A stretch of 64,000 nt of DNA from Candidatus Thiopontia autotrophica (GCA_014384675.1 JACNFK010000014.1:1213-65212), one strand, 5' to 3'. Shown: positions 22,994 to 49,478, counted from the stretch's first letter. Numbers and translations: made by a program. Notes: generated from the sequence alone by a model not told the origin.

Positions 22994-24382
22994 CTAAGGC
23001 TCCATGTCATACTGGCTAATCAGCCTTCTCAGGCGTGGGCGAGATACCCCCAGAATTTCACAGGCCCTTCCCTTATGCCATCCTGTGGCATCCAGAACGC
23101 GCAGTACATGTTCTCGCTCAACCTCTTGCAGAGATCGATTGACCTGGTCACTGACTGTTTCTGCCCGTTGCAGGGTTGAGTTCAGAGATTGATTCGGAAG
23201 GTCGCTTGCAAGAGCGCCGCTACAGAGATTTTCAGGTATCAGATCTGGGGTTATGGAGTCTCCTGGAGATAGTGCAACAAGCTTGGTTAGCAGGTTTTCC
23301 AGTTCACGAATATTCCCGGGCCAATCATACTGCTGAAAACAGTTGATAACCTCCATGCTTATCTGGCTTACATTTCTTCCCAGTTCACTGTTGATACGAT
23401 CCAGCAGGCTACGTACCAGATCCAGCAGATCATCCTTGCGTTCACGAAGTGGTGGAATATGGATAGTTACTACCTGGAGTCGATAGAATAGATCGGCACG
23501 GAACTCACCATTTTTAACCCGCTCATCAAAATCTATATTGGTAGCAGCTATAACACGTGCATTGTTGGTGATTGGATACTTGCCACCAACTGGAGTGAAC
23601 TCCTTCTCTTGTAGTACACGCAGTAATTTTGCCTGCATGTTTGGTGAGAGCTCTCCAATTTCATCAAGAAATATGGTTCCTCCCGAGGCAAGCTCAAATT
23701 TGCCAAGTTGTTTGGATGTGGCGCCGGTGAATGAGCCTTTTTCATGACCAAAAAGATCTGATTCCAGCAGGGTTTCGACAACGGCAGCACAATTTACGGC
23801 CACAAATGGACCGTCTGCAAGCTTTCCAGAGTTATGAATAGCATTGGCTACCAGCTCTTTTCCTGTGCCACTCTCTCCGGTAATAAGAACTGTGGCTGGG
23901 CTCTGTGCCACCATACCGATGGTCTTGAAAACCTCTCGCATCACATTGCTGTGGCCAACCATGGTTGAGCGGCTACTTGATGTGGATGCAGGTTCAACCA
24001 TCTGCTCAGTAGGACCATCTTGTGCCAGCAGGCGGGCTATCGACTGATCAAGTTCATCGATATCAATTGGTTTATGAATATAGTCATCAGCACCATTCTG
24101 CATTGCCTGAATAGTGCTCTCCATATCATGAAATGCAGTAATCATGATTATGTGTGCCTTGGGGAAAGTAGTAACAAATTCTGGTAGCCCCTCCAGTCCG
24201 GTTTTCCCCGGCATCTTAATATCGAGAATAATGATTTCAGGGGGGAGAGGCAGGGCTGATCCGGATGCGATTCCTTTATCAACACTGTGGCTGGTTGTAA
24301 CACTGTGCCCCTGCGCACCAAAATGGAGTTTAAGGGTTCTGCAGCTTGCCTCATCGTCATCGACAATTAATATATTTGCCAT
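22994..24382 (-). CDS. Sigma-54-dependent two-component response regulator (NtrC family: receiver, AAA+ and Fis-type HTH domains)
   Basis: Receiver domain (ILIVDDD...ILDIKMPG), a GESGTGKELVANAIH Walker A motif and a C-terminal HTH. Confidence 0.9.
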   Translation of the reverse strand: MANILIVDDDEASCRTLKLHFGAQGHSVTTSHSVDKGIASGSALPLPPEIIILDIKMPGKTGLEGLPEFVTTFPKAHIIMITAFHDMESTIQAMQNGADDYIHKPIDIDELDQSIARLLAQDGPTEQMVEPASTSSSRSTMVGHSNVMREVFKTIGMVAQSPATVLITGESGTGKELVANAIHNSGKLADGPFVAVNCAAVVETLLESDLFGHEKGSFTGATSKQLGKFELASGGTIFLDEIGELSPNMQAKLLRVLQEKEFTPVGGKYPITNNARVIAATNIDFDERVKNGEFRADLFYRLQVVTIHIPPLRERKDDLLDLVRSLLDRINSELGRNVSQISMEVINCFQQYDWPGNIRELENLLTKLVALSPGDSITPDLIPENLCSGALASDLPNQSLNSTLQRAETVSDQVNRSLQEVEREHVLRVLDATGWHKGRACEILGVSRPRLRRLISQYDMEP

Positions 24383-24425: not shown

Positions 24426-27095
24426 TCATGACTTGCTTGTGGTTTCAGCCGTATCATCAAGTTTTTTGGTTTTAATGAATGTTGTCGGTGCTCTGTCTGC
24501 TTCAGTATCTGGAATATTATGTTTCATGTGGGTAACCGGAAGCGTAATAACTACACAAGTGCCAACCCCATTATTGCTCTCCATGGATATGGTTCCATTG
24601 TGTTGTTCAATAACTCGTTTAACGATAGCCAGCCCAAGTCCTGTCCCCTTTGATCGGCTGGTGACAAAAGGCTCAAAGATTTCGTCTCTGTTTGATTCAT
24701 CTATCCCTGTGCCATTGTCGCAGATCTCTAGCTGGATGATTGAGCCATCATCATGCAGATCCATGCGTGCATTGATGATTATTTTTGGTCTGTCTGGGGC
24801 TGCTTCGGTAATCGCATGGATTGCATTGCTTAGCAGGTTGGTTAATACACGACGCATCTTGGTTTTGTCGACCTGTATTGTGGGTAGGCCGGCTGGATAG
24901 TGGGTGATTACGTCAATGCTGTTTTCAATGATCTGTTTTTGAATGGCATTGATTGCGGTCTCGGTTAATTTATCAAGGCTGCTCCAGGAGAGATCCAGTT
25001 CATCTGGTCGGGAATATGCGAGTAGCCCGTCCAGAATACTCTCCATGTAACGAATCTGTTGTAGCCCAATTTCATGCAACTCTCTATCTTCAGCGTTTCC
25101 GCCCTCTTTTTTGCTGAGAATCTGTAGCCCCATTTTGATGGATGAGAGAGGGTTGCGCAGATCATGAGCAACCATGCTGGCCATGCGTCCAACTACAGCA
25201 AGAGTCTTGGCTTGTGCTAACTCATCTTTTCGTTTCCGAATCTCCTCTTCAAGATCTTTTTGTGCAGTGATATCTTCCTTAACGGAGAGGAAGTGAGTTA
25301 TCTCACCATCTTCGTTGCGAATTGGTGACATAAGGGCGGACTCCCAATATAGTTCACCGCTCTTCTTTCTATTATGAAGGATGCCGCGCCACTCTTTTCC
25401 ACTACTGATTGTCTGCCACAGATCTCTGTACTCTTCTGGAGAGGTGTCTCCTGATTTCAGGATGCGAGGGTTTTTTCCTATTACCTCTTGTGGCAGATAG
25501 CCGGTGAGTTCGGTGAATTTTGGATTGACGTACTCAATTCTGCCAGTTCTGTCTGTAATCAGGATTACAGCAGGGCTCTGTTCAGCAGCACGCGCCAGCT
25601 TGGTAAGCTCTTCACGAGTTTGGTGCTGCTCAGTAATGTCCTGTCCAATACAGGTGATGCTCTCTATCTGGTTTGCATCATTAATAGTGGTTGTTGAAGT
25701 CCATGCAATCAGTCTATTCTTGCCACGAAAATCAATAATATGAGACTCATGGTAAGTTGACCCCTGCAAGCCATCTTCTCCATCAAGAATCTGTTTTATC
25801 CCGTTTATACTGTCACCATCAGGAACAAAATTATCAAACCAGTTTTTTCCGATCACATCACTGCGACGTTTTCTGAGCAGGTGTAGCAGGTAGTTGTTGC
25901 AGAACAGGATGTTGCCATCCAGATCAATGGTGAGTGCGGCAAGATGTATCTCTTCAAGAGTGTCTCGGAAGCGCAGCTCATTTGCCCGCTGTAGCTCATG
26001 TTCCTCTCTGCGTATGATGTTGTTGGTGAGTAGCAATGACAGTAGTGAGATAAAGAAGAGAATTGCTATATAGAGCAATCTGTTTTTCTGCAGAAAACCA
26101 AGTGGCGTGGACTCAAGGTTGGATGTTGGCAGGTAAGAGATAACTTTCCAGTTATATCTATTTAGCTGATCTGTGCTGATTATATGGTCAGTTGTTCCTG
26201 CTCTTATCTGGGCAACCCTGAGAGGGTTTACAGTTATATGCGAGAAGAGGCCGTTTGCTGTAATGAACTGCCCGGATTTTGTGCCACTAATATGGCTCCA
26301 TTCACTTTTAAACTCACTACTGAAAATATTGTCAGGATTGCCCAGCATGAATCCCCACTCTTTTTCCGGATTATTATGGCTTAGCCAGTATCCGTCACTG
26401 TTAACCAGATGCACCCTGTCCGTAATAGAGGCCACAGCACTTCTGAAGTTGTTGACGAGATCGATACCAAGATAGTTGAGTACGATCATCCCCCGACGCT
26501 CACCAGAAGATGAGTAAATAGGGGTGACAAATCTGATAACAGGTTTGTATGGGGTCTCCAGGCTGTTATTCTCAATATTAAGGTCCATAGGAGACAGGTA
26601 GACCTCACCATCAAGAAGTTCGAGCCCCTCTTTGATGTAGTATCTGTCAGACTTGTTTTGCAACTCTGAATCTGCAACCGAGATTCCACCCTTGTTACTG
26701 TAGTTTATTCGGCAAAGCTCATTGCCGGAATCGTCTATATAACGGATCTGATCATATATTCCGTTGTTGTTGGCAAAACTCAGAAACAGCTGGTTGATGT
26801 CGCTCTTCTTTTGAGCCATTTCTGTCTTGTCTACAAACATGATGTTATCCATCTGTTCTGCAAGGAAGAGCAGGTCAGAGACAATCTTCGATATATCTTT
26901 TGTAATCATCTCCTCGGCAAGGTGAATATTTAGCTCTTCAGCTCGCTTGATTGCGTTACCACGCACCTCATAATCAGAGTAGAAATGGATAGTGGCAGCC
27001 ACAAACAGGACAACTATCATGGGTAAAAGGAAGAGCATTAACAGGCGGCTCTTCTTTAACAGTGATGGAGTGTAGTGGTGTAGCGTCATCCGCAA
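24426..27095 (-). CDS. Sensor histidine kinase with a periplasmic dCache-like domain, two PAS domains, HisKA and HATPase_c
   Basis: A TM helix (LLMLFLLPMIVVLFVAATI), a roughly 300 aa periplasmic domain, then a second TM. The H-box is MASMVAHDLRNPLSSIK. There is no receiver domain. Confidence 0.85.
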   Translation of the reverse strand: MRMTLHHYTPSLLKKSRLLMLFLLPMIVVLFVAATIHFYSDYEVRGNAIKRAEELNIHLAEEMITKDISKIVSDLLFLAEQMDNIMFVDKTEMAQKKSDINQLFLSFANNNGIYDQIRYIDDSGNELCRINYSNKGGISVADSELQNKSDRYYIKEGLELLDGEVYLSPMDLNIENNSLETPYKPVIRFVTPIYSSSGERRGMIVLNYLGIDLVNNFRSAVASITDRVHLVNSDGYWLSHNNPEKEWGFMLGNPDNIFSSEFKSEWSHISGTKSGQFITANGLFSHITVNPLRVAQIRAGTTDHIISTDQLNRYNWKVISYLPTSNLESTPLGFLQKNRLLYIAILFFISLLSLLLTNNIIRREEHELQRANELRFRDTLEEIHLAALTIDLDGNILFCNNYLLHLLRKRRSDVIGKNWFDNFVPDGDSINGIKQILDGEDGLQGSTYHESHIIDFRGKNRLIAWTSTTTINDANQIESITCIGQDITEQHQTREELTKLARAAEQSPAVILITDRTGRIEYVNPKFTELTGYLPQEVIGKNPRILKSGDTSPEEYRDLWQTISSGKEWRGILHNRKKSGELYWESALMSPIRNEDGEITHFLSVKEDITAQKDLEEEIRKRKDELAQAKTLAVVGRMASMVAHDLRNPLSSIKMGLQILSKKEGGNAEDRELHEIGLQQIRYMESILDGLLAYSRPDELDLSWSSLDKLTETAINAIQKQIIENSIDVITHYPAGLPTIQVDKTKMRRVLTNLLSNAIHAITEAAPDRPKIIINARMDLHDDGSIIQLEICDNGTGIDESNRDEIFEPFVTSRSKGTGLGLAIVKRVIEQHNGTISMESNNGVGTCVVITLPVTHMKHNIPDTEADRAPTTFIKTKKLDDTAETTSKS

Positions 27096-31151: not shown

Positions 31152-31158
31152 TGGCAGT

Positions 31159-36895: not shown

Positions 36896-36911
36896 TGCAT
36901 AAGGTGTGCCA
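36896..36911 (-). promoter_or_regulatory. Sigma-54 (-24/-12) promoter for the HEAT-cupredoxin transcript
   Basis: The minus strand reads TGGCACACCTTATGCA. GG and GC are spaced exactly as in TGGCAC-N5-TTGC, about 50 nt upstream of the HEAT start. Confidence 0.6.
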
Positions 36912-36975
36912 AATACTTTATCTTATTGATAATCAATGGGTTGATTATCTGGATATTTATATACTACCAGGTAAA

Positions 36976-37087
36976 TTGAACGATATGTTCAATTGGAAGA
37001 ATCGTTCCATAGATTATTGAACAAAACGTTCAGTTTGTGAACATTATGGTCTATTTTTTATAAACTTAAAACTGAACAAAACGTTCA
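36976..37087. promoter_or_regulatory. Three TGAAC-N5-GTTCA palindromes (candidate UAS/enhancer sites) plus one TGGAA-N6-TTCCA palindrome
   Basis: TTGAACGATATGTTCAA (36976-36992), TGAACAAAACGTTCA (37018-37032) and TGAACAAAACGTTCA (37073-37087), plus TGGAAGAATCGTTCCA (36994-37009). They lie in a divergent AT-rich intergenic region between two sigma-54 promoters. Confidence 0.6.
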
Positions 37088-37140
37088 CATTCATATGTAA
37101 CAGACTGTAAAATAAAATATATTTATAAAATTTTTATTTA

Positions 37141-37156
37141 TGGCATATAAAATGCA
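37141..37156 (+). promoter_or_regulatory. Sigma-54 (-24/-12) promoter for the CydA-like/cytochrome operon
   Basis: TGGCATATAAAATGCA with GG-N10-GC spacing. It is 62-158 bp downstream of the three palindromes. Confidence 0.6.
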
Positions 37157-37393: not shown

Positions 37394-37519
37394 ATGAAAA
37401 CTGGAATTGCATTTGTAGTTGCCCTTTTTGTGGCATTTTTTCTGTTCTATGGAATGGATCATCTCATCATGGGAATGCAGGGGCTTCCTCTGAATCTCGA
37501 CATGTCGCCGGCGCAGTAG
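37394..37519 (+). CDS. 41 aa single-TM peptide, possibly a CydX-like accessory subunit
   Basis: MKTGIAFVVALFVAFFLFYGMDHLIMGMQGLPLNLDMSPAQ. It ends 16 nt before the CydA-like start. Confidence 0.3.
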   Translation: MKTGIAFVVALFVAFFLFYGMDHLIMGMQGLPLNLDMSPAQ

Positions 37520-37535
37520 AAGGAATAAAAATCCA

Positions 37536-40177: not shown

Positions 40178-40242
40178 TCGAGATTTCAATGGCAGCGGAT
40201 GCTGCGATTTTTTTAACTTTTTATCAATGTAAGGAATTAATA

Positions 40243-40560
40243 ATGAACAAGGTAATGATTAGTGTTGTGGCAACTGTAGTAATGGCTTCAAGCCAGTCTG
40301 TAATGGCCGATGCCGCCGGTGATTTTGCCGCCGGCTGTTTTGCCTGTCACAGCCCTGCAACTGCAGCTGCAGTAGGCGCTCCTGGCATGGGTGATAAGGC
40401 TGCCTGGGCGCCACGCATCGCCAAGGGTATGGATGCACTCTATGCAACCGCAATCAATGGCTCTCCAACAAACCCACTGATGATGCCGCGTGGTGGAACC
40501 GCTTTGAGTGATGATGCGCTAAAGGCTGTGGTGGACTACATGGTTGAGCAGTCAAAATAA
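40243..40560 (+). CDS. Monoheme cytochrome c (c5/c553-like)
   Basis: Signal peptide, then a CFACH heme motif in a roughly 85-residue mature domain. The start is taken at MNKVMIS, which has a better RBS than the ORF-track start at 40189. Confidence 0.75.
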   Translation: MNKVMISVVATVVMASSQSVMADAAGDFAAGCFACHSPATAAAVGAPGMGDKAAWAPRIAKGMDALYATAINGSPTNPLMMPRGGTALSDDALKAVVDYMVEQSK

Positions 40561-40615
40561 GTTGGCTGATATTTTTTTACCAAAATAGCTATTAGAGATT
40601 TGGAGTAGACCCCCC

Positions 40616-43051
40616 ATGAAACGATTTGGAATTTCGGCATTCTGGCAGGCAATTATTGTAACTATTGCGGCCTACCTGATATTTACCAATGCCTTTCCTC
40701 CATTGATGCCAAAGTCACTGGTGGTTCAGTTTATGCTGATTACCGTGATAGGGGTGCTACTCTACTTCTCTTTTGATGATGAGCGCTGGGCAGAATTTTT
40801 AAGTCCCATTCAGAATGTTCTGCGAGGCGGTGGTTTCCGTTTGACGGTTACCCGTTGGCTCTTCCTGCTTGCAATCCCTGCAGTGGTTGGTTACACAACC
40901 TATGGGTTGGTCAAACCATCACTGGACTCTCCTGTGGAGCTGCGCCAGGTTCATCCTGCCCCTCCATCAACCGTCAAGATCTGGGGCAAGAATTTTGATC
41001 TAAACAGTCTGGAGAGCCCGATCCGTACCGAGGTGCTGACCCAGTGGAAGAGTGGTGAGCGTGAGGGAGCCATGGAGATCTATAACGAGTCAGTCAATGC
41101 GGGCCGTGATGTCTACTATGGCAACTGCTTCTTCTGTCACGGTGATCTGCTGGATGGCAAGGGCCACTATGCGGAAGGGTTTAACCCTCAACCCATCAAT
41201 TTTCAGGATCCAACTGTAATTCCACAACAGCAGGAGGCCTTCCTCTTCTGGCGTGCGGCAACAGGTGGTCCAGGTCTGCCCAAGGAGGGAACTCCATGGA
41301 ACTCTGCAATGCCGGTCTGGCACGAAATGTTGAGTGAGGATGATATCTGGAATGTGCTGATGTTTATCTTCGACTACAACGAGCAGGTTCCAAGAATCTG
41401 GAATCTGGAAGATTCTGAGGCAGCTACAGGAATCAGAGACTCTATTCTCGAGGCCCGCAAAGGGATGGGGGGAGATGAACTCTACCAGTTCCGCTGTATG
41501 GTCTGTCACGGTGAGGAGGGCATGGGTGATGGTGTTGCTGCAGAGTTGATGTACCCCAAGCCACGTGATTTCTCCTTGTCGATGTTTAAATACAAAAGCT
41601 CTCCAGGAACAATCCTGCCAAGGGATGAAGATCTTTTCCATACCATCAAGTTTGGACTGGATGGTACGGGAATGCCAGGTTGGGGAACCCTGCTTAGCGA
41701 TGAGCAGATCAGTAGTCTGATACCGGTAATCAAGTCGTTTGATATTGCCGCAGCATGGCCGCCAGAAGAGGCGGATGATGAAGATTATGATGAGGATAGC
41801 GGCCGTTATCTGAAGGATGATTTCCAGGTAATTACCGAGCGTGAACCGGAAGAGGGACAGATTGCATACACCCCGGAGTCAATAGAGAAGGGCAAGGCTG
41901 CCTTCGAAAAGTCATGTACAGAGTGTCACGGTGATACTGGACGAGGCAATATCATGTCCGGTAAACAGCTAGCGGATGACTGGGGTAATCGTATCTGGCC
42001 ACGAGATCTGACCAAGCCATGGACTTGGCGCGCCACCAACTATACTGCTGGCAAGACTCCGGAAGAGAGCCGAGATCAGACTGTGCGCAATATCTATAGT
42101 CGACTATCTATCGGCATACCAGGAACTCCAATGCCAGCTCACCGAGCTACAGAAGAGGGGAATAAAGATCCGGTAAGTCTGGAGGATCGTTGGCATATTG
42201 CCAATTATGTATACAGCCTGCGCGAAACCACTACCCAGCTGGGTGATAATAATGTGATTCGTGCAGCCAAGGTAGCTGGGGCTCTCCCTGATAGTATGGA
42301 TGATGCCGGTTGGGAAGGGGCTGAGCCTACAACTCTGATGATGGTTCCTAATATCATCAAGGAAGAGCGTCTCTTCACCCCGCTTAATGATGCAATTACT
42401 GTGCGTGCCCTCTACAACAAAAAGGAGATCGCCCTGCTGCTGGAGTTTGATGACCGTACTGATAGTCGTCCCGGTGAAGAGACCTCGGAGGGAATTCAGG
42501 ATGAGGATCTGGAGCTGTTCTCGGATGCGGTTGCGGTTCAGTTCCCCAAGGAGGATGGATTTGAGACCTCACCGGTAGTGGTTAAGCCGTTATACCGCCA
42601 CGGTGATGGCAGACACCACACAACCATGTGGTACTGGAATGCTGGTAGTGTAGAGCCGGCTGTTGCCGATTCCGGGATGTTGCTGGATGCCTCTGGCCCA
42701 GACAAGAAGATCGAGCCACGAATTGGTGATACCTCTCTCTTGACCGAAGGTAGATGGAAAGATGGTCGCTGGCAGGTACTGATGAAGCGTTCACGCAATG
42801 GTGGAGGCAGGGATGGCAAAACTGGTGATCTCAACTTTGTTGAGGGCAGATTCCTCCCCATCTCCTTTGCCAACTGGGATGGCAGTAATGGCGAGAAGGG
42901 TGCCAGACATACCCTCACCACATGGACCTGGTTGGTGCTGCCACCAGAGATTGATGAGCAGCGACTCTATGGGGTTCCTGGGGGTGTTGCCTTTGCCATC
43001 TTCCTTGCCGGCCTTATTTTGGTAAGAACCCAGCGTAGAGGTGCCAAGTAG
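40616..43051 (+). CDS. Membrane-bound triheme cytochrome c with a large C-terminal domain
   Basis: Three N-terminal TM helices, three class-I-like heme sites (CFFCHGD, CMVCHGE, CTECHGD) and a C-terminal TM helix. 811 aa. Confidence 0.75.
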   Translation: MKRFGISAFWQAIIVTIAAYLIFTNAFPPLMPKSLVVQFMLITVIGVLLYFSFDDERWAEFLSPIQNVLRGGGFRLTVTRWLFLLAIPAVVGYTTYGLVKPSLDSPVELRQVHPAPPSTVKIWGKNFDLNSLESPIRTEVLTQWKSGEREGAMEIYNESVNAGRDVYYGNCFFCHGDLLDGKGHYAEGFNPQPINFQDPTVIPQQQEAFLFWRAATGGPGLPKEGTPWNSAMPVWHEMLSEDDIWNVLMFIFDYNEQVPRIWNLEDSEAATGIRDSILEARKGMGGDELYQFRCMVCHGEEGMGDGVAAELMYPKPRDFSLSMFKYKSSPGTILPRDEDLFHTIKFGLDGTGMPGWGTLLSDEQISSLIPVIKSFDIAAAWPPEEADDEDYDEDSGRYLKDDFQVITEREPEEGQIAYTPESIEKGKAAFEKSCTECHGDTGRGNIMSGKQLADDWGNRIWPRDLTKPWTWRATNYTAGKTPEESRDQTVRNIYSRLSIGIPGTPMPAHRATEEGNKDPVSLEDRWHIANYVYSLRETTTQLGDNNVIRAAKVAGALPDSMDDAGWEGAEPTTLMMVPNIIKEERLFTPLNDAITVRALYNKKEIALLLEFDDRTDSRPGEETSEGIQDEDLELFSDAVAVQFPKEDGFETSPVVVKPLYRHGDGRHHTTMWYWNAGSVEPAVADSGMLLDASGPDKKIEPRIGDTSLLTEGRWKDGRWQVLMKRSRNGGGRDGKTGDLNFVEGRFLPISFANWDGSNGEKGARHTLTTWTWLVLPPEIDEQRLYGVPGGVAFAIFLAGLILVRTQRRGAK

Positions 43052-43120
43052 GCTCTCTATTCTCGGACAGCCTCCAAGTAGTCTTCTCTGCAGTGATAGT
43101 TAATTGATTGCCCTTGATTT

Positions 43121-43154
43121 ACCCTCCCGGCACTGTCGGCGAGGGTATTTTTTT
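43121..43154 (+). terminator. Rho-independent terminator after the triheme cytochrome gene
   Basis: ACCCTC...GAGGGT stem followed by ATTTTTTT. Confidence 0.5.
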
Positions 43155-43183
43155 GAATGTAACGTTCTGTTTGAGTGGTCAGT

Positions 43184-43241
43184 TGAACGATTCGTTTAAG
43201 TAGTTCACCATAGTTACAGATAAAGTGAATAATGTGTTCAC
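43184..43241. promoter_or_regulatory. Two TGAA-N7-TTCA palindromes (candidate UAS sites) upstream of the CCP operon promoter
   Basis: TGAACGATTCGTTTA (43184-43198, one mismatch) and GTGAATAATGTGTTCAC (43225-43241). Both have the same half-site and spacing as the 36976-37087 sites. Confidence 0.5.
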
Positions 43242-43328
43242 TTTTTGCTATATAAGCTGGCGCTAATAATTGGGCAAATAAATAATAACTAACTGAAAAC
43301 ACTGATATAAGTAAAATATTATATTTTC

Positions 43329-43344
43329 TGGCACAGAAAATGCT
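43329..43344 (+). promoter_or_regulatory. Sigma-54 (-24/-12) promoter for the CCP-CCP-Rieske-Mo operon
   Basis: TGGCACAGAAAATGCT, exact TGGCAC with a correctly spaced GC, about 120 nt upstream of the first CCP start. Confidence 0.6.
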
Positions 43345-43466
43345 TAATACTTAGTGGTTATAAATAGATTGGGCGGGGGTTATTGCCCAAAGAACCAGGT
43401 TTTTTATAGGTTCGTCAGCAGTTTTGGCGAATATTTTTTTGTTAAACCATACAACGGAGAAACAAT

Positions 43467-44603
43467 ATGGGAGAACGACTGAAAACAGTGCAAGGTGCAA
43501 TCGCAGCAACGATTGCCCTGAGCCTGAGTGTCGGGGTATCCACAGCGGTTGCAGCAGGGTCTCATGGACCAGTTGCCAAGATCGATGTGAATGCTGCGAA
43601 GGCTGAGCTCGGTAAACGACTCTTCTTTGACCGCCGCCTATCGGGTGATGCGGGTATAGCATGTGCGGATTGTCACAGTCCAGATCACGGTTTTGGTAGT
43701 AAGGATGCGCTTTCACCTGGATACCCAGGTAACGGCCATTTCCGCAACGCACCATCACTGGTGAATACGGCACATAAGAAGACATGGATGCATGATGGCC
43801 GCCTCGGTACCAACCTCAATGATGTTACTCGTGAGATGCTCACAGAGGACTACATCATGAATATGGACATGCGGATGATGCAGGAACGTGTCAAACAGGA
43901 TTCAGAATACCTGGCACTCTACAAGGCTGCAGGTATGAATGAGCCATCAAATGGCAGTATTCGTAAAATGCTCCCTATCTTCATGAAGACTCTGACCACA
44001 CGCAATGCGCCAGTGGACAATGGGACTATGAGTGATGCAGCAAAACGTGGCGGAGCAATCTTTGACGGCAAGGGTGGATGTAACCAGTGTCATACTGGTG
44101 CCCTCTACTCAGATGGTGGTCGTCACAACACAGGTGTTCCTGAGAATCTGGATGTCTTCCTTGATCCAATGAACCATCAGGCATACCTAGCCTACGGAAT
44201 TGGTATGGGGGTTGAGAATATTTTCAATACCAAACGTGATATTGGTGCGGCAGTACAGACTCATGAGGCTGACGGTTCTGACCGCGGCATGTTCATGACC
44301 CCGCAGTTACGTGGTCTCAAGTACAGTGCTCCATATATGCATAACGGCATGATGGGCACGCTTGATGATGTGGTTGAGTTCTACAATCAGGGTGGTGGTC
44401 AGGATAGCAACAAGAGCTCTCTGCTTAAGCCACTACGTTTGACTGACGGTGAGAAAGCTGATCTGGTGGCCTATCTTGAGGCACTATCAGGCGACGCACT
44501 GACTGGTCCAGAGTTTGTATGGTCCAAGCCATTCCCTGCAGAGTATGAGGTTATCGAGAACTGGAGACAGGTCGATAACCGTACACGTGCACCAATCAAA
44601 TAA
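43467..44603 (+). CDS. Di-heme cytochrome c peroxidase (CCP/MauG family); IdrP1-like
   Basis: Signal peptide. Two CxxCH motifs (CADCHSP and CNQCHTG) and a conserved CCP C-terminal block (MHNGMMGTLDDVVEFYNQGGG). Confidence 0.85.
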   Translation: MGERLKTVQGAIAATIALSLSVGVSTAVAAGSHGPVAKIDVNAAKAELGKRLFFDRRLSGDAGIACADCHSPDHGFGSKDALSPGYPGNGHFRNAPSLVNTAHKKTWMHDGRLGTNLNDVTREMLTEDYIMNMDMRMMQERVKQDSEYLALYKAAGMNEPSNGSIRKMLPIFMKTLTTRNAPVDNGTMSDAAKRGGAIFDGKGGCNQCHTGALYSDGGRHNTGVPENLDVFLDPMNHQAYLAYGIGMGVENIFNTKRDIGAAVQTHEADGSDRGMFMTPQLRGLKYSAPYMHNGMMGTLDDVVEFYNQGGGQDSNKSSLLKPLRLTDGEKADLVAYLEALSGDALTGPEFVWSKPFPAEYEVIENWRQVDNRTRAPIK

Positions 44604-44622
44604 GCGATCAGGAGAGTTAATT

Positions 44623-45882
44623 ATGTTTGAAAAGAAAAACAGAAACCCAATCGCTGTTGCTGTCGTAATGACTACAACATTGATGGTTGGATGTACCTCA
44701 CAGGCGGGTTCTGTTGCCACCGAGACTGCAGCTGCTCCAACAGTTGTTGCCTCCATGGATAGTGGAACACCTATAGTAGCACCTGGCCTTAAGCCGGCTG
44801 GCGCCTCAATCAACCCATCTCTGGCGGCACTTGGTCCAGTACCGGTTCCTCCAGATAACCCCATCACTCCTGCAAAGGTAGAGCTGGGCAAGATGTTGTT
44901 TTTTGAGCCAGCAATCGGTGGTGATACCTCAACTCCTTGCTCTGCATGTCATGAGCCGGATCAGGGTTGGGCATGGGCCGAGGATATCTCTCGTGGATAC
45001 CCAGGTACTGTTCACTGGCGTAACAGCCAGACTGCGGTTAACTCAGCCTACTACCCACGTCTCTTCTGGGCAGGTTCTGTATCCTCACTAGAGGCACAGG
45101 CCAAGTCTGCGGCAGGCGGTGCAGTAGCAGGTAATGCGGAGTTCGATATTGTTGAGGCCCGTCTTGCTCTGATGCCAGAGTACAGAAAACGTTTCAATGA
45201 GGTCTTCGGCGACGAAATGCCTCTATACAGAAATGCATTCCGTGCGATTGCTGCTTTTGAGCGTGCTGAGCTGGTTCAGCGTGATGCACCAATTGATAAC
45301 TACTTCAATGGTGATGACAGCGCACTGAGCGAAGAGCAGAAGCGCGGTATGGCTCTGTTTAACGGCAAGGCAAACTGTATTGAGTGTCATAATGGCCCAA
45401 TGGCTACGGATTTTGACTTCTACAATATTGGTGTGCCTACTCTAGAGCGTTGGAAGACCGATGGTCTGGCACAGATAACTTATCGTTATGAGATGTATGC
45501 CAAGGGTTCAAACGAGGAGATGTATCGCAACTCCAAGGGCGATCCAGGCTTCTACTTCCGTGGTAAGAATAGCTGGGACAAGGGTAAATTCCGGGTTCCA
45601 TCACTGCGCTACACTATGTATACCGCACCGTATATGCATAACGGCACACTCATGACACTGGAAGATGTTGTTGACTTCTATAATGAGGGCGGTGGCCATA
45701 ATGACTACTCCAAAAACAAGAGTGATCTTATCAAGCCTCTTGGTCTGAGTGATGAAGAGAAAGAAGATCTGGTTGCGTTCCTGGAGGCATTCTCTGGTGA
45801 TGAGATTGAGATTGAGCGTCCCAAGATGCCTGGTTATGCACCTCTGTTTACCAAGGCAGAGCTGATGATGGAGAAGAAATAA
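44623..45882 (+). CDS. Di-heme cytochrome c peroxidase, lipoprotein; IdrP2-like
   Basis: LMVGC lipobox. CSACHEP and CIECHNG heme motifs, and the CCP block MHNGTLMTLEDVVDFYNEGGG. The start is taken at MFEKKN, which has an AGGAG RBS. Confidence 0.85.
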   Translation: MFEKKNRNPIAVAVVMTTTLMVGCTSQAGSVATETAAAPTVVASMDSGTPIVAPGLKPAGASINPSLAALGPVPVPPDNPITPAKVELGKMLFFEPAIGGDTSTPCSACHEPDQGWAWAEDISRGYPGTVHWRNSQTAVNSAYYPRLFWAGSVSSLEAQAKSAAGGAVAGNAEFDIVEARLALMPEYRKRFNEVFGDEMPLYRNAFRAIAAFERAELVQRDAPIDNYFNGDDSALSEEQKRGMALFNGKANCIECHNGPMATDFDFYNIGVPTLERWKTDGLAQITYRYEMYAKGSNEEMYRNSKGDPGFYFRGKNSWDKGKFRVPSLRYTMYTAPYMHNGTLMTLEDVVDFYNEGGGHNDYSKNKSDLIKPLGLSDEEKEDLVAFLEAFSGDEIEIERPKMPGYAPLFTKAELMMEKK

Positions 45883-46478
45883 TGAGCACTAAAACAGAAG
45901 TGACAAAGAAAAGAGAGGACCAGACTGCTGGTGAGCACGGCAAGTGCATGCTCAACCGCCGTCAGTTCCTGATGTACAGTGGTGCTACTGCAGCCACTGC
46001 GAGCACTGTCTCTCTTACCCTGTTCCCAGGAACAGCCAAGGCTGTACAGACCAAGGCACGAGTGGTTGGTTATCCTCGCAAACTGGTTGGTAAGCTGAGT
46101 GAGATGAAGGATAACGTTCCAGTAATGATCAACTATCCAGATAATGGCAAGAACTCCATGGCTACCATGGTGAAGACTGGCGTTAAATGTGGTGGTGGAG
46201 TCGGTGCTGGACGTGACCTGGTTGCATTCAGTGCGCTCTGTACACATCAGGGTGGCCCACTGCTGGGACGTTACACTGCGGTAGATGAGCATAGAGTTAT
46301 GGGTTCATGCCCACTGCATCTATCTACCTACGATGTGACTCGCCATGGAATCATTGTCTCTGGTCAGGCTTATGAGAGTCTGCCACAGGTCCTCCTGGAG
46401 CTGGATGGAGATGATATCTACGCAGTTGGCATGATGGGGCTGATTTACGGCCGTAACCAGAACCTGATGGAATCTTAA
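45882..46478 (+). CDS. TAT-exported Rieske [2Fe-2S] small subunit (AioB/IdrB-like)
   Basis: RRQFL twin-arginine motif. The Rieske ligands are CTHQGGPL ... CPLHLSTY. The start overlaps the CCP2 stop. Confidence 0.8.
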   Translation: MSTKTEVTKKREDQTAGEHGKCMLNRRQFLMYSGATAATASTVSLTLFPGTAKAVQTKARVVGYPRKLVGKLSEMKDNVPVMINYPDNGKNSMATMVKTGVKCGGGVGAGRDLVAFSALCTHQGGPLLGRYTAVDEHRVMGSCPLHLSTYDVTRHGIIVSGQAYESLPQVLLELDGDDIYAVGMMGLIYGRNQNLMES

Positions 46479-46490
46479 GGAGAAAAAGAT

Positions 46491-49184
46491 ATGTCTACAA
46501 ATTATTATCTGCCAGAAGACTCCGCACCATTGCCACCCAAGCATGCGGAAGTCCTGACTACAGCCTGTGACTACTGTATTGTTGCCTGTGGCTATAAAGT
46601 CTATCGCTGGCCTGTCGGCTCTGGTGATGGTGGTCCAACTGCTGATGCAAATGCATTCGGTCAGGACTTCCCAACCAGCGCCCTTCAAAACTGGGTAGCC
46701 CCTGCACAGCATAATGTTGTTATGCACGGTGGTCGTCCACATAACGTGATCGTTGTCCCTGATAAGGACACTCAAGCGGTTAACAAAACCGGTGACTCCT
46801 CCATGCGTGGTGGTCTGCTTGCAGCCAAGTGCTACAATCCAAAGACCCCTACCCGTGATCGTCTCACCAATCCTATGGTACGTATCAACGGTACCCTTCA
46901 GCCAGTTAGTTGGGACTTCGCTCTCGATATTGCTGCTGAGGTTGGTAAGTATGTCATCAAGAACCATGGCGCTAACGCCTACTCGGTGAAGACATTCTCC
47001 TACCAGTATCTTGAGAACACCTATGCGATCAAGAAGTATGCACGTCGTAATGTAAATACTGCATCCTTCACCTTCCACGATACCCCATCTGACGTAACCT
47101 CTACACCAGGTTTCCGTGATGCCGGTTTCGATAACTTTGGCCCATCATATGATGACTGGGGAGATGCAGATGTACTGCAGATCCATGGTACAGATCCGTA
47201 TGAGACCAAGACCATTATCTATACGCAGTTCATCAAACCTGCGATTGAGCGTGGCATGAAGACCATCTGGCTGAATCCTCGTGAGACTGCCGGTATCGCC
47301 TATGCAAACAGCAAGGGTCCTGATCAGACTATCCACTTCCAGCTGACACTTGGTACCGATACGGTGCTTATGGGTGCAATTGCCCGTGTCATCTGTGAGA
47401 ACGGATGGGAGGACAAGGATTGGGTAAACAACTGGGTCAACAGCAAGTGGGAGACCTCTTCCGGCTTCGGTCAGGGAACCCGTAATACCCCATGGCAGTG
47501 GCGTACAACCTGGGGCATGTTCCAGCTCAAGGGTGGCTATAAAGGCTACAGCAAGTGGGTTCAGTCCAAGGATGAGTACAAGGTAGAGAATGCCGCGAAG
47601 ATCTGTGATGTTCCTGCTGCAGATATCATCAAGGCTGCTGAGTGGCTCACCAACAAGGGCGCTGGAACCAAGGCCTCCTTCGGTATCGAGAAGGGCTACT
47701 ACTGGTCCAACAATACCGGTAACACCAATGCTGTATCTTCACTGGCAACCATCTGTGGTGCCGGCGGACGTCCAGGACAGGTTGTTGGTCGCTTCGGTGG
47801 TCACCAGCGTGGTGGTGCAGGTGGCGGTAGCTATCCTCGTAACAAGTCTCCAGAGAAGCGTCCAGGTCGTCGTCGTCGTTCACTCGACACCGATCGTTAC
47901 CTGATCTCCGGTCACACCCGCTTTGCACACGTAATCGGCACTACCTGGATTCAGGCAATGACCGGTTCTCAGAGCCTCTACCACAAGTTCCATGAGCTGG
48001 TACTTGCCAACCCTAATCAGGTTAAATCCTATGATAAGGGTGATATCATCGAGACCCTGAAGAAGCGTGCTGATTCTGGTGGTATGGTTGTGATCAATCA
48101 GGATATCTATCTACGTGATCCAATCGGTGCCCGTTTCGCGGATGTGGTCTTCCCGGCTGCAACCTGGGGTGAGTCTGACTTCACCAGATCAAACGGTGAG
48201 CGTCGTCTTCGTATCTACAACAAGTTCTACGATGCCCCAGGACAGGCAATGCCAGACTGGTGGATTATTGGTGGAATGGCGAGCCGTATGGGCTACGAAG
48301 GCTTCGACTGGAAGAGCGCCAATGAGGTTGCGGAGGAGTCTACACGCTCCAGCCGTGGTAACCGTAAGGCATACCATATGATCAAGGTCGCGGCACATCG
48401 TGAGGGTAAAACCTTCCATGAGAAGATGCGTGAGTTTGGTACTACTGGTATCCAGGGACCAACAGTCTATAACTACAACACCGGTGAACTGCATGGAACC
48501 AAGCGTCTCCATGACACTACACTGACTGAAGCAGATATGGAGCGTATGGGTGTCACCCAGGGTGCCAACATGACCAACAAGAAGATGACGCACTTCAACT
48601 CTCAGACCGGTAAGGTCAATATCCAGAAGCATCCATGGAAACTGTTTGCAGACTTCCATGATTGGCTCTCTCCCAAGGGGGACGAGCTCTGGTTCTCGAA
48701 TGGTCGTATCAACGAGATCTGGCAGTCTGGATTTGATGATGTTGAGCGTCGTCCTTACGTGACACAGCGTTGGCCTGAGAACTGGGTAGAGATCCATCCT
48801 GATGATGCCAAGGCTCGTGGAATCGAGTCTGGTGATCAGGTCATGCTCTACTCTGATCGTGTGGTCGAGTCCAAGGACACCATCCTCGGTGTTCATGGCA
48901 ATGACTTCCAGTTCTCTGAGATGATGAAGAATGGTCATCTCAAGCTAACCAAGGCCGCAGTCACAGCCGTTGCAGTAATCGCTCCCCACCTGAAGAAGGG
49001 AATGATGTACGGCAATATGCTGGATATGCGCCAGCCCAACAATGCGTTGCAGAACCGCGTGGTCGATCAGATCAGTGGTAACTACAACTACAAGATGGGT
49101 GTGGCCAGGGTCAAGAAGATTGGTGAGTCGAAGTACAAGAAGGAGTTCCGCTCCATGTCCTTCGCACCACGTAATATCATCTAG
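46491..49184 (+). CDS. Molybdopterin (bis-MGD) oxidoreductase large subunit of the AioA/IdrA clade; an iodate reductase-type catalytic subunit is the favoured reading
   Basis: N-terminal LPPKHAEVLTTACDYCIVACGYKVYRWP contains the Cys-X2-Cys-X3-Cys 3Fe-4S motif diagnostic of arsenite oxidase-like enzymes. Further blocks (NVIVVPDKD, IWLNPRET, RFGGHQRGG) align with AioA. 897 aa. Confidence 0.85.
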   Translation: MSTNYYLPEDSAPLPPKHAEVLTTACDYCIVACGYKVYRWPVGSGDGGPTADANAFGQDFPTSALQNWVAPAQHNVVMHGGRPHNVIVVPDKDTQAVNKTGDSSMRGGLLAAKCYNPKTPTRDRLTNPMVRINGTLQPVSWDFALDIAAEVGKYVIKNHGANAYSVKTFSYQYLENTYAIKKYARRNVNTASFTFHDTPSDVTSTPGFRDAGFDNFGPSYDDWGDADVLQIHGTDPYETKTIIYTQFIKPAIERGMKTIWLNPRETAGIAYANSKGPDQTIHFQLTLGTDTVLMGAIARVICENGWEDKDWVNNWVNSKWETSSGFGQGTRNTPWQWRTTWGMFQLKGGYKGYSKWVQSKDEYKVENAAKICDVPAADIIKAAEWLTNKGAGTKASFGIEKGYYWSNNTGNTNAVSSLATICGAGGRPGQVVGRFGGHQRGGAGGGSYPRNKSPEKRPGRRRRSLDTDRYLISGHTRFAHVIGTTWIQAMTGSQSLYHKFHELVLANPNQVKSYDKGDIIETLKKRADSGGMVVINQDIYLRDPIGARFADVVFPAATWGESDFTRSNGERRLRIYNKFYDAPGQAMPDWWIIGGMASRMGYEGFDWKSANEVAEESTRSSRGNRKAYHMIKVAAHREGKTFHEKMREFGTTGIQGPTVYNYNTGELHGTKRLHDTTLTEADMERMGVTQGANMTNKKMTHFNSQTGKVNIQKHPWKLFADFHDWLSPKGDELWFSNGRINEIWQSGFDDVERRPYVTQRWPENWVEIHPDDAKARGIESGDQVMLYSDRVVESKDTILGVHGNDFQFSEMMKNGHLKLTKAAVTAVAVIAPHLKKGMMYGNMLDMRQPNNALQNRVVDQISGNYNYKMGVARVKKIGESKYKKEFRSMSFAPRNII

Positions 49185-49203
49185 ATCTGACCTTCGTGTT
49201 GTG

Positions 49204-49241
49204 AAAAACCCCGGTAGCTTAAATGCTACCGGGGTTTTTTT
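49204..49241. terminator. Strong bidirectional rho-independent terminator
   Basis: AAAAACCCCGGTAGC-TTAAAT-GCTACCGGGGTTTTTTT, a 15 bp perfect stem with an A-tract upstream and a T-tract downstream. Confidence 0.85.
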
Positions 49242-49478
49242 ATGGTGTTTGAATCCTTGTGAAAATTCTGAAAAAACTTTTTCAGAGGCTCCCTAACTAA
49301 CCATAGGTAGAAAAATTGATCCAGGTCAATTCAGTAGAATCAGTAATCAACTATAGTCTTAAGTGTCTGTTGTGATCTCCGATTATTATTCCTACATTAG
49401 TATGAAGAGGGAGCAGGCACCGCACCGGTTCACTTCTCCAAGCGAACCGGTGCATCTGTGTGAATGGTTGATGTAGTG

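What the first reader, a model, noticed from the sequence alone, without database searches (positions are those of the whole stretch)
43052..43466. Terminator, then UAS palindromes, then a sigma-54 promoter: an insulated regulatory unit inside the cytochrome/Idr-like cluster
A GC stem with a T7 tract (43121-43154) ends the cytochrome operon. Two palindromes with the same half-site and spacing as the 37 kb sites follow (43184-43198 and 43225-43241). Then TGGCACAGAAAATGCT (43329-43344) precedes the first CCP gene. This indicates that the reductase operon is separately but coordinately controlled.
Basis: seen in the sequence. Interest (0 to 1): 0.6.

Follow-up and report, generated by a model that had tools for sequence, protein, structure and literature searches.

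The report
Sigma-54 promoter unit of iodate-reductase-like operon
The 415-base gap in front of an iodate-reductase-like gene cluster holds a transcription stop signal, two activator-binding palindromes and a sigma-54 promoter; the layout is ordinary in kind, is conserved in many marine bacteria, and points to the still-uncharacterised regulator of these genes.

Summary
These are a stem-loop plus T7 (43120-43154, dG -19.1), two 15-bp palindromes one mismatch from TGAAC-N5-GTTCA (43184-43198, 43226-43240), and TGGCACAGAAAATGCT (43329-43344) 122 nt before the first peroxidase gene.

The sigma-54 match alone is not above chance in this window. The palindrome motif is: 11 hits against 2.35 expected, with five in two intergenic regions.

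Comparative data decide the case. Among 8 close relatives whose spacers are only 49% identical, the terminator hairpin, both palindromes, an IHF-like block, the -24/-12 elements and the ribosome-binding region stand out as conserved. Across 61 idr-like loci the promoter and palindromes recur at fixed offsets.

In Vibrio, Photobacterium, Amphritea and Marinobacter, an NtrC-type activator lies beside the cluster. It is 55% identical to the window's only such activator (22994-24382). There it sits in a HEAT-kinase-activator operon, divergent from the cluster, and a shared palindrome pair lies between two sigma-54 promoters.

The unit is therefore a classic enhancer-dependent sigma-54 promoter for CCP-CCP-IdrB-IdrA, coordinated with the two promoters at 37 kb. 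It is a new member of a known kind. No expression or binding data exist, and the inducing signal (iodate or low oxygen) is inferred.

The parts
43120..43154 (+). Intrinsic terminator of the upstream bd-like oxidase/cytochrome c operon: bulged GC stem 43120-43147 plus T7 43148-43154
   Evidence: Sequence. Fold -19.1 kcal/mol, z -4.18. Relatives L073, L001, L002, L003 and L004 carry a hairpin plus T-run at the same place with different stem sequences.
43154..43168 (.). Possible weak third activator site, TGAATGTAACGTTCT (2 mismatches), abutting the T-tract
   Evidence: Only partly kept in L073 and not in the other relatives. Low confidence.
43184..43198 (.). Distal upstream activator site, TGAACgattcGTTtA (1 mismatch to TGAAC-N5-GTTCA)
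   Evidence: Partly conserved in relatives as TTG(a/t)ACGATT(c/t)GTT. It lies 42 bp from the proximal site.
43226..43240 (.). Proximal upstream activator site, TGAATaatgtGTTCA (1 mismatch), 103 bp upstream of the promoter 16-mer
   Evidence: GTGAA...GTTCA is invariant in all 8 aligned relatives. The offset falls in the 100-104 bp class seen across loci.
43286..43298 (-). Candidate IHF bending site, TTTCAGTTAGTTA (2 mismatches to WATCAANNNNTTR), between the activator sites and the promoter
   Evidence: The TAAy-N4-TGA block is conserved in position in relatives, with 1 mismatch in L001 and L003. The pattern is not enriched in the window overall, so this is inconclusive.
43329..43344 (+). Sigma-54 (-24/-12) promoter TGGCACAGAAAATGCT: GG at 43330-43331, GC at 43342-43343, predicted start near 43355
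   Evidence: T-G-G..A..T-G-C columns are invariant in relatives. A sigma-54-like site lies at -200..-30 in 43 of 61 idr-like loci, against a chance rate of about 9% per locus.
43356..43395 (+). Nested stem-loop at the 5' end of the predicted leader (outer GGUU/AACC, inner GGGC../..GCCC)
   Evidence: Fold -12.4 kcal/mol, z -2.0. The same geometry with different inner-stem sequences appears in 7 relatives, but individual z-scores are weak, -0.07 to -3.0. No alignable covariation.
43410..43440 (+). Second leader hairpin followed by AT7 (terminator-like), a lineage-specific insertion
   Evidence: One search lists it. Fold -8.9 kcal/mol, z -3.25. Present only in the window and L073, absent from the six other close relatives. 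Unique in the window.
43467..44603 (+). First di-haem cytochrome c peroxidase gene (IdrP-like), with a Sec signal and two CxxCH motifs
   Evidence: PF03150 at 5.6e-31. Motifs. GGAG at 43456-43459 lies before the ATG.
44623..45882 (+). Second di-haem peroxidase gene (IdrP-like). The true start is the ATG at 44623, not the TTG at 44515.
45882..46478 (+). Rieske small subunit (IdrB/AioB-like) with the Tat motif RRQFL
   Evidence: TIGR02694 at 2.1e-33. Motifs.
46491..49184 (+). Molybdopterin large subunit (IdrA/AioA-like) with the 3Fe-4S motif CDYCIVAC
49203..49246 (+). Strong intrinsic terminator that ends the four-gene operon
   Evidence: 16-bp stem plus T-run. Fold -28.4 kcal/mol, z -6.9.
36896..37156 (.). 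Sister control region at 37 kb. It holds a sigma-54 promoter (-) at 36896-36911 for the HEAT-repeat operon, a perfect IHF palindrome at 36931-36946, activator sites at 36977, 37018 and 37073 (perfect) plus weaker ones at 36994 and 37038, and a sigma-54 promoter (+) at 37141-37156 for the bd-like/cytochrome operon.
   Evidence: All blocks are conserved in L073, L001, L002 and L004.
22994..24382 (-). NtrC-type response regulator (receiver + sigma-54 AAA+ domain with GSFTGA + Fis-type HTH). It is the only sigma-54 activator gene in the window and the proposed binder of the palindromes.
   Evidence: It is 55% identical over its full length, with a conserved HTH, to the Vibrio sinaloensis activator encoded next to the idr-like operon.
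24426..27095 (-). Partner sensor histidine kinase: two TM segments around a dCache-like periplasmic domain, two PAS domains, HisKA and HATPase

Best explanation
The 43052-43466 spacer is the complete control region of a four-gene operon: two di-haem peroxidases, a Rieske subunit and a molybdopterin subunit. This gene set is the idrP1P2BA-type, iodate-reductase-like cluster.

Shown from sequence and conservation:
- A Rho-independent terminator (43120-43154) lies at the end of the upstream bd-like oxidase/cytochrome c operon.
- Two dyad sites matching TGAAC-N5-GTTCA, 42 bp apart, lie 103 and 145 bp upstream of a -24/-12 sigma-54 promoter (43329-43344).
- An AT-rich, IHF-like block lies between the sites and the promoter.

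Inferred mechanism:
- The membrane kinase (24426-27095) phosphorylates the NtrC-type regulator (22994-24382).
- Regulator dimers bind the two dyads and assemble into the active ATPase ring.
- DNA bending brings the ring to the sigma-54 holoenzyme held in a closed complex.
- ATP hydrolysis opens the promoter, and transcription starts near 43355.
- The transcript carries a 112-nt leader and runs to the terminator at 49203-49246.

The same regulator would drive the two divergent sigma-54 promoters at 36896-37156. One serves the HEAT-repeat operon, possibly reading through to the kinase/regulator genes and so autoregulating. The other serves the bd-like oxidase/cytochrome operon. This would give three separately initiated but co-regulated transcripts.

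By analogy with published idr induction, the likely signals are iodate and/or oxygen limitation. That step is not shown here.
For: The elements are present and the dyad motif is strongly enriched.

Phylogenetic footprint: in the 49%-identical spacers of 8 relatives, the conserved blocks are these elements and the ribosome-binding region. The terminator stem varies in sequence but keeps its form. The 37-kb region shows the same logic.

Across 61 idr-like loci:
- A sigma-54-like site lies at -200..-30 in 43 loci, against a chance rate of about 9% per locus.
- A dyad with at most one mismatch lies at -330..-140 in 29 loci, against a chance rate of about 0.8% per locus.
- Dyad-to-promoter offsets cluster at 88-93, 100-104 and 121-123 bp. 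These classes differ by about 1 and 3 helical turns.

In Vibrio, Enterovibrio, Photobacterium, Amphritea, Marinobacter, Alginatibacterium and Psychromonadaceae, an orthologous activator (47-56% identity), kinase and HEAT gene form an operon divergent from the idr-like operon. A shared dyad pair lies between two outward-facing sigma-54 promoters.

The window's activator is the only one in the 64 kb. It keeps the receiver, AAA+ and HTH_8 domains, and its HTH is conserved with the Vibrio protein.

No FNR- or CRP-like site lies in the spacer, and the sigma-70-like matches there are not above chance.

Literature: idr genes are induced by iodate and low oxygen (PMC11445184). A sigma-54 regulator/kinase pair lies upstream of idr in Azoarcus sp. 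DN11 (PMC10149662).
Against: - There are no transcript, binding or genetic data.
- The sigma-54 pattern alone is at the chance level in the window.
- rpoN is not in the window, as far as I annotated it.
- The activator gene lies 19 kb away here, so its pairing with these sites rests on orthology and synteny in other genomes.
- Both 43-kb dyads carry a mismatch, and the IHF-like site has two mismatches.
- idr-like loci of Thiomargarita/Beggiatoa relatives and of Alphaproteobacteria lack the module, so it is not universal.
- The loci are phylogenetically related, so the counts overstate independent support.
- The leader holds a terminator-like hairpin (43410-43440) whose role is unknown.
Confidence: 0.8

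Rival explanations
1. The dyads are real regulatory sites but are bound by a different protein from the activator encoded at 22994-24382. This could be another sigma-54 activator elsewhere in the genome, or a classical repressor or activator.
For: The activator gene is 19 kb from the 43-kb sites, and the rest of the genome is unseen. No binding data exist. Loci L028 and L029 carry a more distant activator (37-40% identity) with a variant dyad, GGAACGATTCTTTCA. This shows that regulator and site pairs can drift.
Against: The orthologous activator is adjacent to the same dyad motif in at least 17 loci from several families. The dyads keep helically phased offsets of about 90-123 bp from a -24/-12 promoter, which is typical of enhancer sites and not of operators. 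The activator's HTH is conserved. It is the only sigma-54 activator in the window.
Confidence: 0.1
2. The operon is mainly transcribed by read-through from the cytochrome operon or from a sigma-70 promoter in the AT-rich spacer. On this view the TGGCAC-N5-ATGCT match is fortuitous.
For: The sigma-54 pattern is not enriched in the window. Two 9-of-12 sigma-70-like matches lie in the spacer at 43204-43233 and 43293-43322. Terminator efficiency is unknown.
Against: The sigma-70-like matches are at the chance level (16 found against 17.9 expected), and their hexamers are not conserved in relatives, whereas TGG-N9-TGC is invariant. The same promoter type recurs in Vibrionaceae, which have no upstream cytochrome operon. 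A -19 kcal/mol hairpin plus T7 separates the operons.
Confidence: 0.07
3. The conserved blocks reflect constraint other than transcription control, such as a small RNA or a mobile repeat.
For: Conserved hairpin-forming segments occur in the predicted leader.
Against: There is no Rfam match in 36800-43600. The leader hairpin sequence is unique in the window. The conserved blocks are short protein-site-like motifs at fixed distances, not an extended structured region, and no covariation was detectable.
Confidence: 0.03

Closest known systems
AioSR (AioXSR)/RpoN control of the arsenite oxidase genes aioBA
   Same: The structural genes are the closest characterised homologues (AioA/AioB). In both systems a two-component kinase plus an NtrC-type sigma-54 activator encoded near the enzyme genes drives a -24/-12 promoter in front of them. 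For aioBA, the RpoN site and AioR dependence are reported in PMC7533571, which cites Kang et al. 2012 and Koechler et al. 2010.
   Different: The enzyme cluster here is the idr type, with two di-haem peroxidases before the Rieske and Mo genes. I did not see an AioX-like periplasmic binding protein gene among the annotated neighbours. The kinase has its own dCache-like periplasmic domain. A large HEAT-repeat protein is the conserved companion gene.
Classical NtrC/IHF-type enhancer-dependent sigma-54 promoters (for example glnAp2, glnHp2, nifH); textbook knowledge
   Same: Paired dyad sites lie about 100-150 bp upstream of GG-N10-GC, with an AT-rich, IHF-like segment between them. The activator has the receiver-AAA+-Fis-HTH architecture. 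Divergent promoters sharing one enhancer also occur in the Vibrionaceae loci.
   Different: The recognition sequence differs (TGAACG-N3-CGTTCA-like against TGCACC-N5-GGTGCA for NtrC), and so do the regulon and the sensor kinase. Nothing in the mechanism appears new.
idrABP1P2 iodate-reductase clusters of Pseudomonas sp. SCT, Denitromonas sp. IR-12 and Azoarcus sp. DN11
   Same: The gene content is the same: an AioA-like Mo subunit with CX2CX3C, a Tat-Rieske subunit and two Sec-exported di-haem peroxidases (criteria from PMC8692401). In DN11 a sigma-54 regulator (atoC-like) and a kinase (atoS-like) lie upstream of idr (PMC10149662). idr transcription is inducible by iodate (PMC11445184).
   Different: No published description of the promoter, enhancer sites or regulator function was found. 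I could not fetch those betaproteobacterial loci to test for the same dyad. The window's organism is an uncultured Piscirickettsiaceae/Thiotrichales-type bacterium with no physiology.

Membership tests
Sigma-54 (RpoN)-dependent promoter | GG and GC doublets exactly 10 nt apart, within a good match to TGGCACG-N4-TTGCW | tested here: met
   TGGCACAGAAAATGCT at 43329-43344, one mismatch. The GG and GC columns are invariant in 8 relatives.
Sigma-54 (RpoN)-dependent promoter | Positioned upstream of, and oriented toward, a gene; conserved in orthologous loci | tested here: met
   It lies 122 nt before the ATG at 43467. A comparable site lies at -200..-30 in 43 of 61 loci, against a chance rate of about 9% per locus.
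Sigma-54 (RpoN)-dependent promoter | The genome encodes sigma-54, and transcription from the site depends on it | not testable with these tools
   No rpoN among the window genes I annotated. The rest of the genome and expression data are unavailable.
Sigma-54 (RpoN)-dependent promoter | A cognate AAA+ enhancer-binding activator is present | tested here: met
   PF00158 at 5.8e-69, with receiver and HTH_8 domains, at 22994-24382. Orthologues are adjacent to the operon in at least 17 other loci.
Bacterial enhancer (upstream activator sites of an NtrC-type activator) | Two or more dyad-symmetric sites about 80-200 bp upstream of the -24/-12 element | tested here: met
   Sites at 43184 and 43226, which are 145 and 103 bp upstream of the promoter start.
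Bacterial enhancer (upstream activator sites of an NtrC-type activator) | Motif over-represented and conserved in position and helical phase across orthologous promoters | tested here: met
   11 hits against 2.35 expected in the window. 29 of 61 loci carry a site, against a chance rate of about 0.8% per locus. Offsets cluster at 88-93, 100-104 and 121-123 bp.
Bacterial enhancer (upstream activator sites of an NtrC-type activator) | IHF (or intrinsic bend) site between the enhancer and the promoter | tested here: inconclusive
   43286-43298(-) has 2 mismatches to WATCAANNNNTTR. Its position is conserved in relatives, but the pattern is not enriched. The 37-kb region has a perfect site at 36931-36946.
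Bacterial enhancer (upstream activator sites of an NtrC-type activator) | Physical binding by the activator | not testable with these tools
   Needs a gel shift, footprint or ChIP.
Rho-independent terminator | GC-rich stem-loop immediately followed by a U-tract, downstream of a stop codon | tested here: met
   43120-43154, -19.1 kcal/mol, z -4.18, T7, 69 nt after the stop codon. Equivalent hairpins with different stems occur in 5 relatives.
Rho-independent terminator | Transcript 3' ends at the U-tract | not testable with these tools
   Needs 3'-end mapping.
idrABP1P2-type iodate reductase cluster (criteria of PMC8692401) | AioA-like Mo subunit and Rieske subunit adjacent to two di-haem cytochrome c peroxidase genes | tested here: met
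   The order here is P-P-B-A, the same as in all gammaproteobacterial relatives.
idrABP1P2-type iodate reductase cluster (criteria of PMC8692401) | A Tat signal on IdrB, Sec signals on the peroxidases, no signal on IdrA, and a 3Fe-4S CX2CX3C motif | tested here: met
   RRQFL in IdrB, hydrophobic N-termini on both peroxidases, and CDYCIVAC in IdrA. These were inspected by eye; no signal-peptide predictor was run.
idrABP1P2-type iodate reductase cluster (criteria of PMC8692401) | IdrA profile-HMM score above the authors' threshold (640), or placement in the IdrA clade | not tested
   The authors' HMM is not available. Indirect evidence: 63-65% identity to Rhodobacteraceae and 54% to Methylomirabilales cluster homologues. 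NCBIfam and public annotations call it an arsenite-oxidase/arsenate-reductase large subunit.
idrABP1P2-type iodate reductase cluster (criteria of PMC8692401) | Iodate reduction activity | not testable with these tools
   The organism is uncultured.

The most novel reading that the evidence does not exclude
The dCache/PAS kinase, the NtrC-type regulator and the conserved cytoplasmic HEAT-repeat protein together form the dedicated sensor-regulator of iodate respiration in marine Gammaproteobacteria. On this reading the system recognises TGAACG-N3-CGTTCA enhancers. In this lineage its regulon has expanded from the idr operon to a bd-like oxidase/multi-cytochrome operon and a radical-SAM/PCP_red gene set. 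That would define a whole iodate-responsive respiratory branch. It would also hand experimenters the sensor that detects sub-micromolar iodate.
Probability: 0.35. Interest if true: 0.6.

Novelty: new member of a known kind. Interest (0 to 1): 0.4.

Why it matters
Published work shows that iodate-reductase (idr) genes are switched on by nanomolar-to-micromolar iodate and by low oxygen. In the papers I could search, no regulator, promoter or binding site has been described.

This region, together with its conserved counterparts in culturable Vibrio, Photobacterium, Amphritea and Marinobacter, gives a concrete and testable circuit. The circuit consists of a specific two-component system, a 15-bp enhancer consensus and a sigma-54 promoter.

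It also suggests that the bd-like oxidase/cytochrome operon and a HEAT-repeat operon belong to the same regulon. That is useful for interpreting idr expression in oxygen-minimum-zone metatranscriptomes. Mechanistically it is textbook sigma-54 control.

Tried and rejected
- Rfam scan of 36800-43600 at E<=1: only a chance snoRNA hit inside a coding region, so no riboswitch or known leader RNA.
- RNAalifold on the predicted leaders: the sequences were too diverged to align and gave 0 pairs. Single-sequence folds show similar nested hairpins, but mostly with insignificant z-scores.
- The leader hairpin as a repeated mobile element: it is unique in the window.
- FNR and CRP sites as alternative oxygen or catabolite control: none with at most 2 mismatches in the spacer.
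- Sigma-70 promoters: matches are at the chance level and not conserved.
- A possible fourth regulon member, from the dyad at 50226 plus the weak sigma-54-like site at 50109-50124(-) upstream of the 159-aa ORF. I rejected it because the ORF is conserved only in the nearest relative (L049), so the site is probably chance.
- Experimentally validated iodate reducers (Azoarcus DN11, Denitromonas, Pseudomonas SCT), to test for the same dyad. The single genome scan kept only closer relatives, and the protein search listed only hits of at least 69% identity, so this test could not be done.
- Literature search for an AioR site consensus: nothing retrievable.

Full report
OBSERVATION. I read 42800-43700 directly and rechecked every coordinate by script.

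The 811-aa cytochrome c/EB_dh gene ends with TAG at 43049-43051. Sixty-nine bases later lies TACCCTCCCGGCACTGTCGGCGAGGGTA (43120-43147), followed by TTTTTTT (43148-43154). As RNA it folds at -19.1 kcal/mol, with z = -4.18 and 1 of 200 shuffles as good. The generic terminator scan did not list it, probably because of a one-base bulge in the stem.

Each is one mismatch from TGAAC-N5-GTTCA. Perfect copies of that motif are at 36977, 37018 and 37073.

The window holds 11 matches with at most one mismatch, against 2.35 +/- 1.5 expected, and no shuffle of 100 reached 11. Five of the 11 lie in two intergenic stretches that make up about 1.7% of the window.

TGGCACAGAAAATGCT occupies 43329-43344. As a bare pattern it is not enriched: 4 matches with at most one mismatch against 3.58 expected. 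Only two of the four keep both GG and GC, namely 36896-36911(-) and 43329-43344(+). Both are intergenic, correctly oriented and about 100 bp from a dyad cluster. A third, slightly weaker site, TGGCATATAAAATGCA (37141-37156, +), faces the bd-like operon.

GENE CONTEXT. Downstream of the spacer lie four genes:
- two di-haem cytochrome c peroxidases (43467-44603, and 44623-45882 after correcting the start);
- a Rieske small subunit with a twin-arginine motif (45882-46478);
- an AioA/IdrA-like molybdopterin subunit with CX2CX3C (46491-49184).

A strong terminator follows at 49203-49246. This is the gene content that PMC8692401 uses to separate iodate-reductase (idr) clusters from arsenite oxidase clusters. 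Pipelines annotate the large subunit as arsenite oxidase/arsenate reductase.

Upstream lies an operon with a cytochrome-bd-subunit-I-like protein, two small c-type cytochromes and the 811-aa tri-haem/EB_dh protein. A minus-strand gene series diverges from that operon. It starts with an 813-aa HEAT-repeat protein (34405-36846) and ends with a dCache/PAS histidine kinase (24426-27095) and an NtrC-type response regulator (22994-24382). That regulator is the only sigma-54 activator signature in the six-frame translation of the window. I found no rpoN among the genes I annotated.

COMPARATIVE TEST. A scan of one genome per species with the large subunit returned 80 loci. The nearest, at 93-97% identity, are uncultured Piscirickettsiaceae/Thiotrichales MAGs. 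Others are Vibrio, Photobacterium, Enterovibrio, Amphritea, Marinobacter, tubeworm endosymbionts, Thiomargarita/Beggiatoa relatives and Alphaproteobacteria.

I aligned the spacer of the window with 7 close relatives. Mean column identity is only 49%, and the conserved blocks are:
- a hairpin plus T-run whose stem sequence differs between genomes (CCCTCCCGG.., CCTCACCG.., CCCCCACCG.., CTTTCCGG..);
- the distal dyad;
- the proximal dyad (GTGAA..GTTCA invariant);
- a TAAy-N4-TGA block that reads as an imperfect IHF site on the minus strand;
- TGG-N9-TGC;
- the ribosome-binding region.

The 37-kb region shows the same footprint: a minus promoter, a perfect IHF palindrome at 36931-36946, the dyads and a plus promoter.

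I then scanned the 61 loci with enough upstream sequence:
- 43 have a sigma-54-like site (at least 8 of 11 consensus positions, GG and GC intact) at -200..-30 from the first peroxidase gene. The background rate predicts about 9% per locus.
- 29 have a dyad with at most one mismatch at -330..-140, against about 0.8% per locus expected.
- Dyad-to-promoter offsets fall into classes of 88-93, 100-104 and 121-123 bp. The window's offsets are 103 and 145 bp. These classes differ by roughly one and three helical turns, as expected for a face-of-helix constraint.

The loci are related to each other, so these counts are not independent trials. They do span several families.

LINK TO THE REGULATOR. An orthologue of the window's activator (47-56% identity) and of its kinase and HEAT-repeat gene lies beside the idr-like operon in Vibrio, Enterovibrio, Photobacterium, Amphritea, Marinobacter, Alginatibacterium and Psychromonadaceae loci, and in a related Oceanospirillaceae MAG. 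The three genes form one operon transcribed away from the idr-like operon.

In Vibrio sinaloensis the 370-bp spacer holds, in order:
- a minus-strand AGGCATGGATTCTGCT;
- two dyads 32 bp apart (TTAACGTTTCGTTCA, TGAACAAAACGTTAA);
- a plus-strand TGGAACACTTTATGCT.

The same symmetric layout recurs in most of the 19 such loci examined. The window's activator aligns with the V. sinaloensis protein over its full length at 55% identity, and the C-terminal helix-turn-helix is conserved (HKGRACEILGVSRPRLRRL against HKGKACEILKISRPRLQRI).

The 37-kb region of the window is therefore the counterpart of the Vibrio divergent control region. The difference is that the bd-like/cytochrome operon sits on the plus side.

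MECHANISM. Shown here: the sequence elements, their enrichment, their conservation and phasing, and their genomic association with one activator family.

Inferred from established knowledge of NtrC-type activators:
- the kinase phosphorylates the regulator;
- dimers occupy the dyads and assemble the AAA+ ring;
- a bend (IHF-like site at 43286-43298; inconclusive) delivers the ring to the closed sigma-54 holoenzyme complex;
- ATP hydrolysis opens the DNA;
- transcription starts near 43355 and runs through a 112-nt leader to the terminator at 49203-49246.

The signal is also inferred. Literature shows idr induction by iodate from 0.1 uM and by oxygen limitation (PMC11445184). An atoC/atoS-like pair lies upstream of idr in Azoarcus sp. 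DN11 (PMC10149662). The kinase here has a periplasmic dCache-like domain between two TM segments plus two PAS domains, which is compatible with sensing an anion and redox state. Nothing here tests that.

RIVALS. A sigma-70 promoter or pure read-through is unlikely for three reasons. Sigma-70-like matches are at the chance level and unconserved. Vibrionaceae use the same promoter without any upstream cytochrome operon. A stable terminator intervenes.

Binding of the dyads by another protein cannot be excluded without biochemistry. Synteny and phasing argue for the NtrC-type regulator. A structured RNA or a repeat element is not supported.

KNOWN RELATIVES AND NOVELTY. The closest described system is AioSR/RpoN control of aioBA, the sister enzyme (PMC7533571). 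The architecture is that of classical NtrC/IHF enhancer-dependent promoters.

Searches of the paper library for idr regulation found only the DN11 gene-neighbourhood remark. I therefore class the unit as a new member of a known kind. It is a well-supported but mechanistically ordinary sigma-54 control region. Its value is that it nominates the regulator, the enhancer consensus and the regulon of iodate-reductase-like genes.

LIMITS. The module is absent from idr-like loci of Thiomargarita/Beggiatoa relatives and Alphaproteobacteria. I could not retrieve the experimentally validated betaproteobacterial and Pseudomonas loci. All functional statements await transcript mapping, genetics and binding assays.

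Noticed in passing
window 43356-43395, and the equivalent positions in L073, L001-L006: The predicted 5' end of the leader folds into a nested hairpin (outer GGUU/AACC, inner 5-11 bp stem). Its inner-stem sequence differs in each relative while the geometry is kept. Individual z-scores are mostly weak, and no alignment-based covariation could be obtained. It may be a 5' stabilising stem-loop.
   Followed up: partly
window 43410-43440: A second leader hairpin followed by AT7 looks like a weak intrinsic terminator or attenuator only 27 nt before the start codon. It is a roughly 29-bp insertion found only in the window and L073, with one compensatory G-C to A-U change between them. It is absent from six other close relatives.
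   Followed up: partly
window 34405-36846 (-); L015-L080 (HEAT hits): A large cytoplasmic HEAT-repeat protein (about 770-813 aa) accompanies idr-like clusters in both Gamma- and Alphaproteobacteria. It lies divergent upstream in Vibrionaceae and downstream of idrA in Rhodobacteraceae/Rhodospirillales and Thiomargarita relatives. It looks like an unrecognised conserved partner of the cluster.
   Followed up: partly
window 27086-34348 (-); L027 13806-20172; L031 13179-21517: A gene set sits between the HEAT gene and the kinase/regulator genes and recurs downstream of idrA in Thiotrichaceae/Thiomargarita loci. It comprises a 255-aa CarboxypepD_reg-domain protein with an N-terminal signal-like sequence, a Usp plus 4x PCP_red-domain protein, a radical-SAM/SPASM plus PCP_red protein, a 122-aa protein and a flavin amine oxidase. 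Function unknown; possibly a maturation module.
   Followed up: partly
window 37195-37520 (+): Two small hydrophobic ORFs (50 aa MTEENENRES...VVLHH and 41 aa MKTGIAFVVALF...) lie between the 37141 sigma-54 promoter and the bd-like oxidase gene. The first start codon is conserved in relatives. They may be small membrane subunits of the bd-like complex.
   Followed up: no
window 37536-39356 (+): The 606-aa 'cytochrome bd subunit I-like' protein matches Pfam Cyt_bd_oxida_I only over its N-terminal half (E 1e-21) and has no NCBIfam hit. It is followed by c-type cytochromes rather than a CydB. It is linked to idr-like clusters in several Thiotrichales, Sedimenticolaceae and tubeworm-symbiont genomes.
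   Followed up: no
window 44515-44623: The longest-ORF start of the second peroxidase gene (TTG 44515) overlaps the first peroxidase gene by 89 nt. The likely true start is ATG 44623, behind a GGAGAG ribosome-binding site, giving a lipoprotein-like signal (…LMVGC).
   Followed up: yes
L028 and L029 (about -226 and -125 from the first peroxidase gene); L079: A subgroup of gammaproteobacterial idr-like loci has a more distant activator/kinase pair (37-40% / 24% identity) downstream of idrA. It has a variant dyad (GGAACGATTCTTTCA) about 100 bp upstream of TGGCGTGAAAAATGCA. This suggests co-drift of regulator and site.
   Followed up: no
window 60137-63468 (+): A cbb3-type cytochrome oxidase operon (CcoN, CcoO, CcoP) lies about 11 kb downstream of the idr-like cluster. 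This is consistent with a micro-oxic lifestyle.
   Followed up: no
window 46491-49184; Public annotations of the large subunit and its >=69%-identical homologues read 'arsenate reductase (azurin) large subunit', 'arsenite oxidase' or 'molybdopterin-dependent oxidoreductase'. By the idr synteny criterion, these are probably systematic mis-annotations of IdrA-type proteins.
   Followed up: partly
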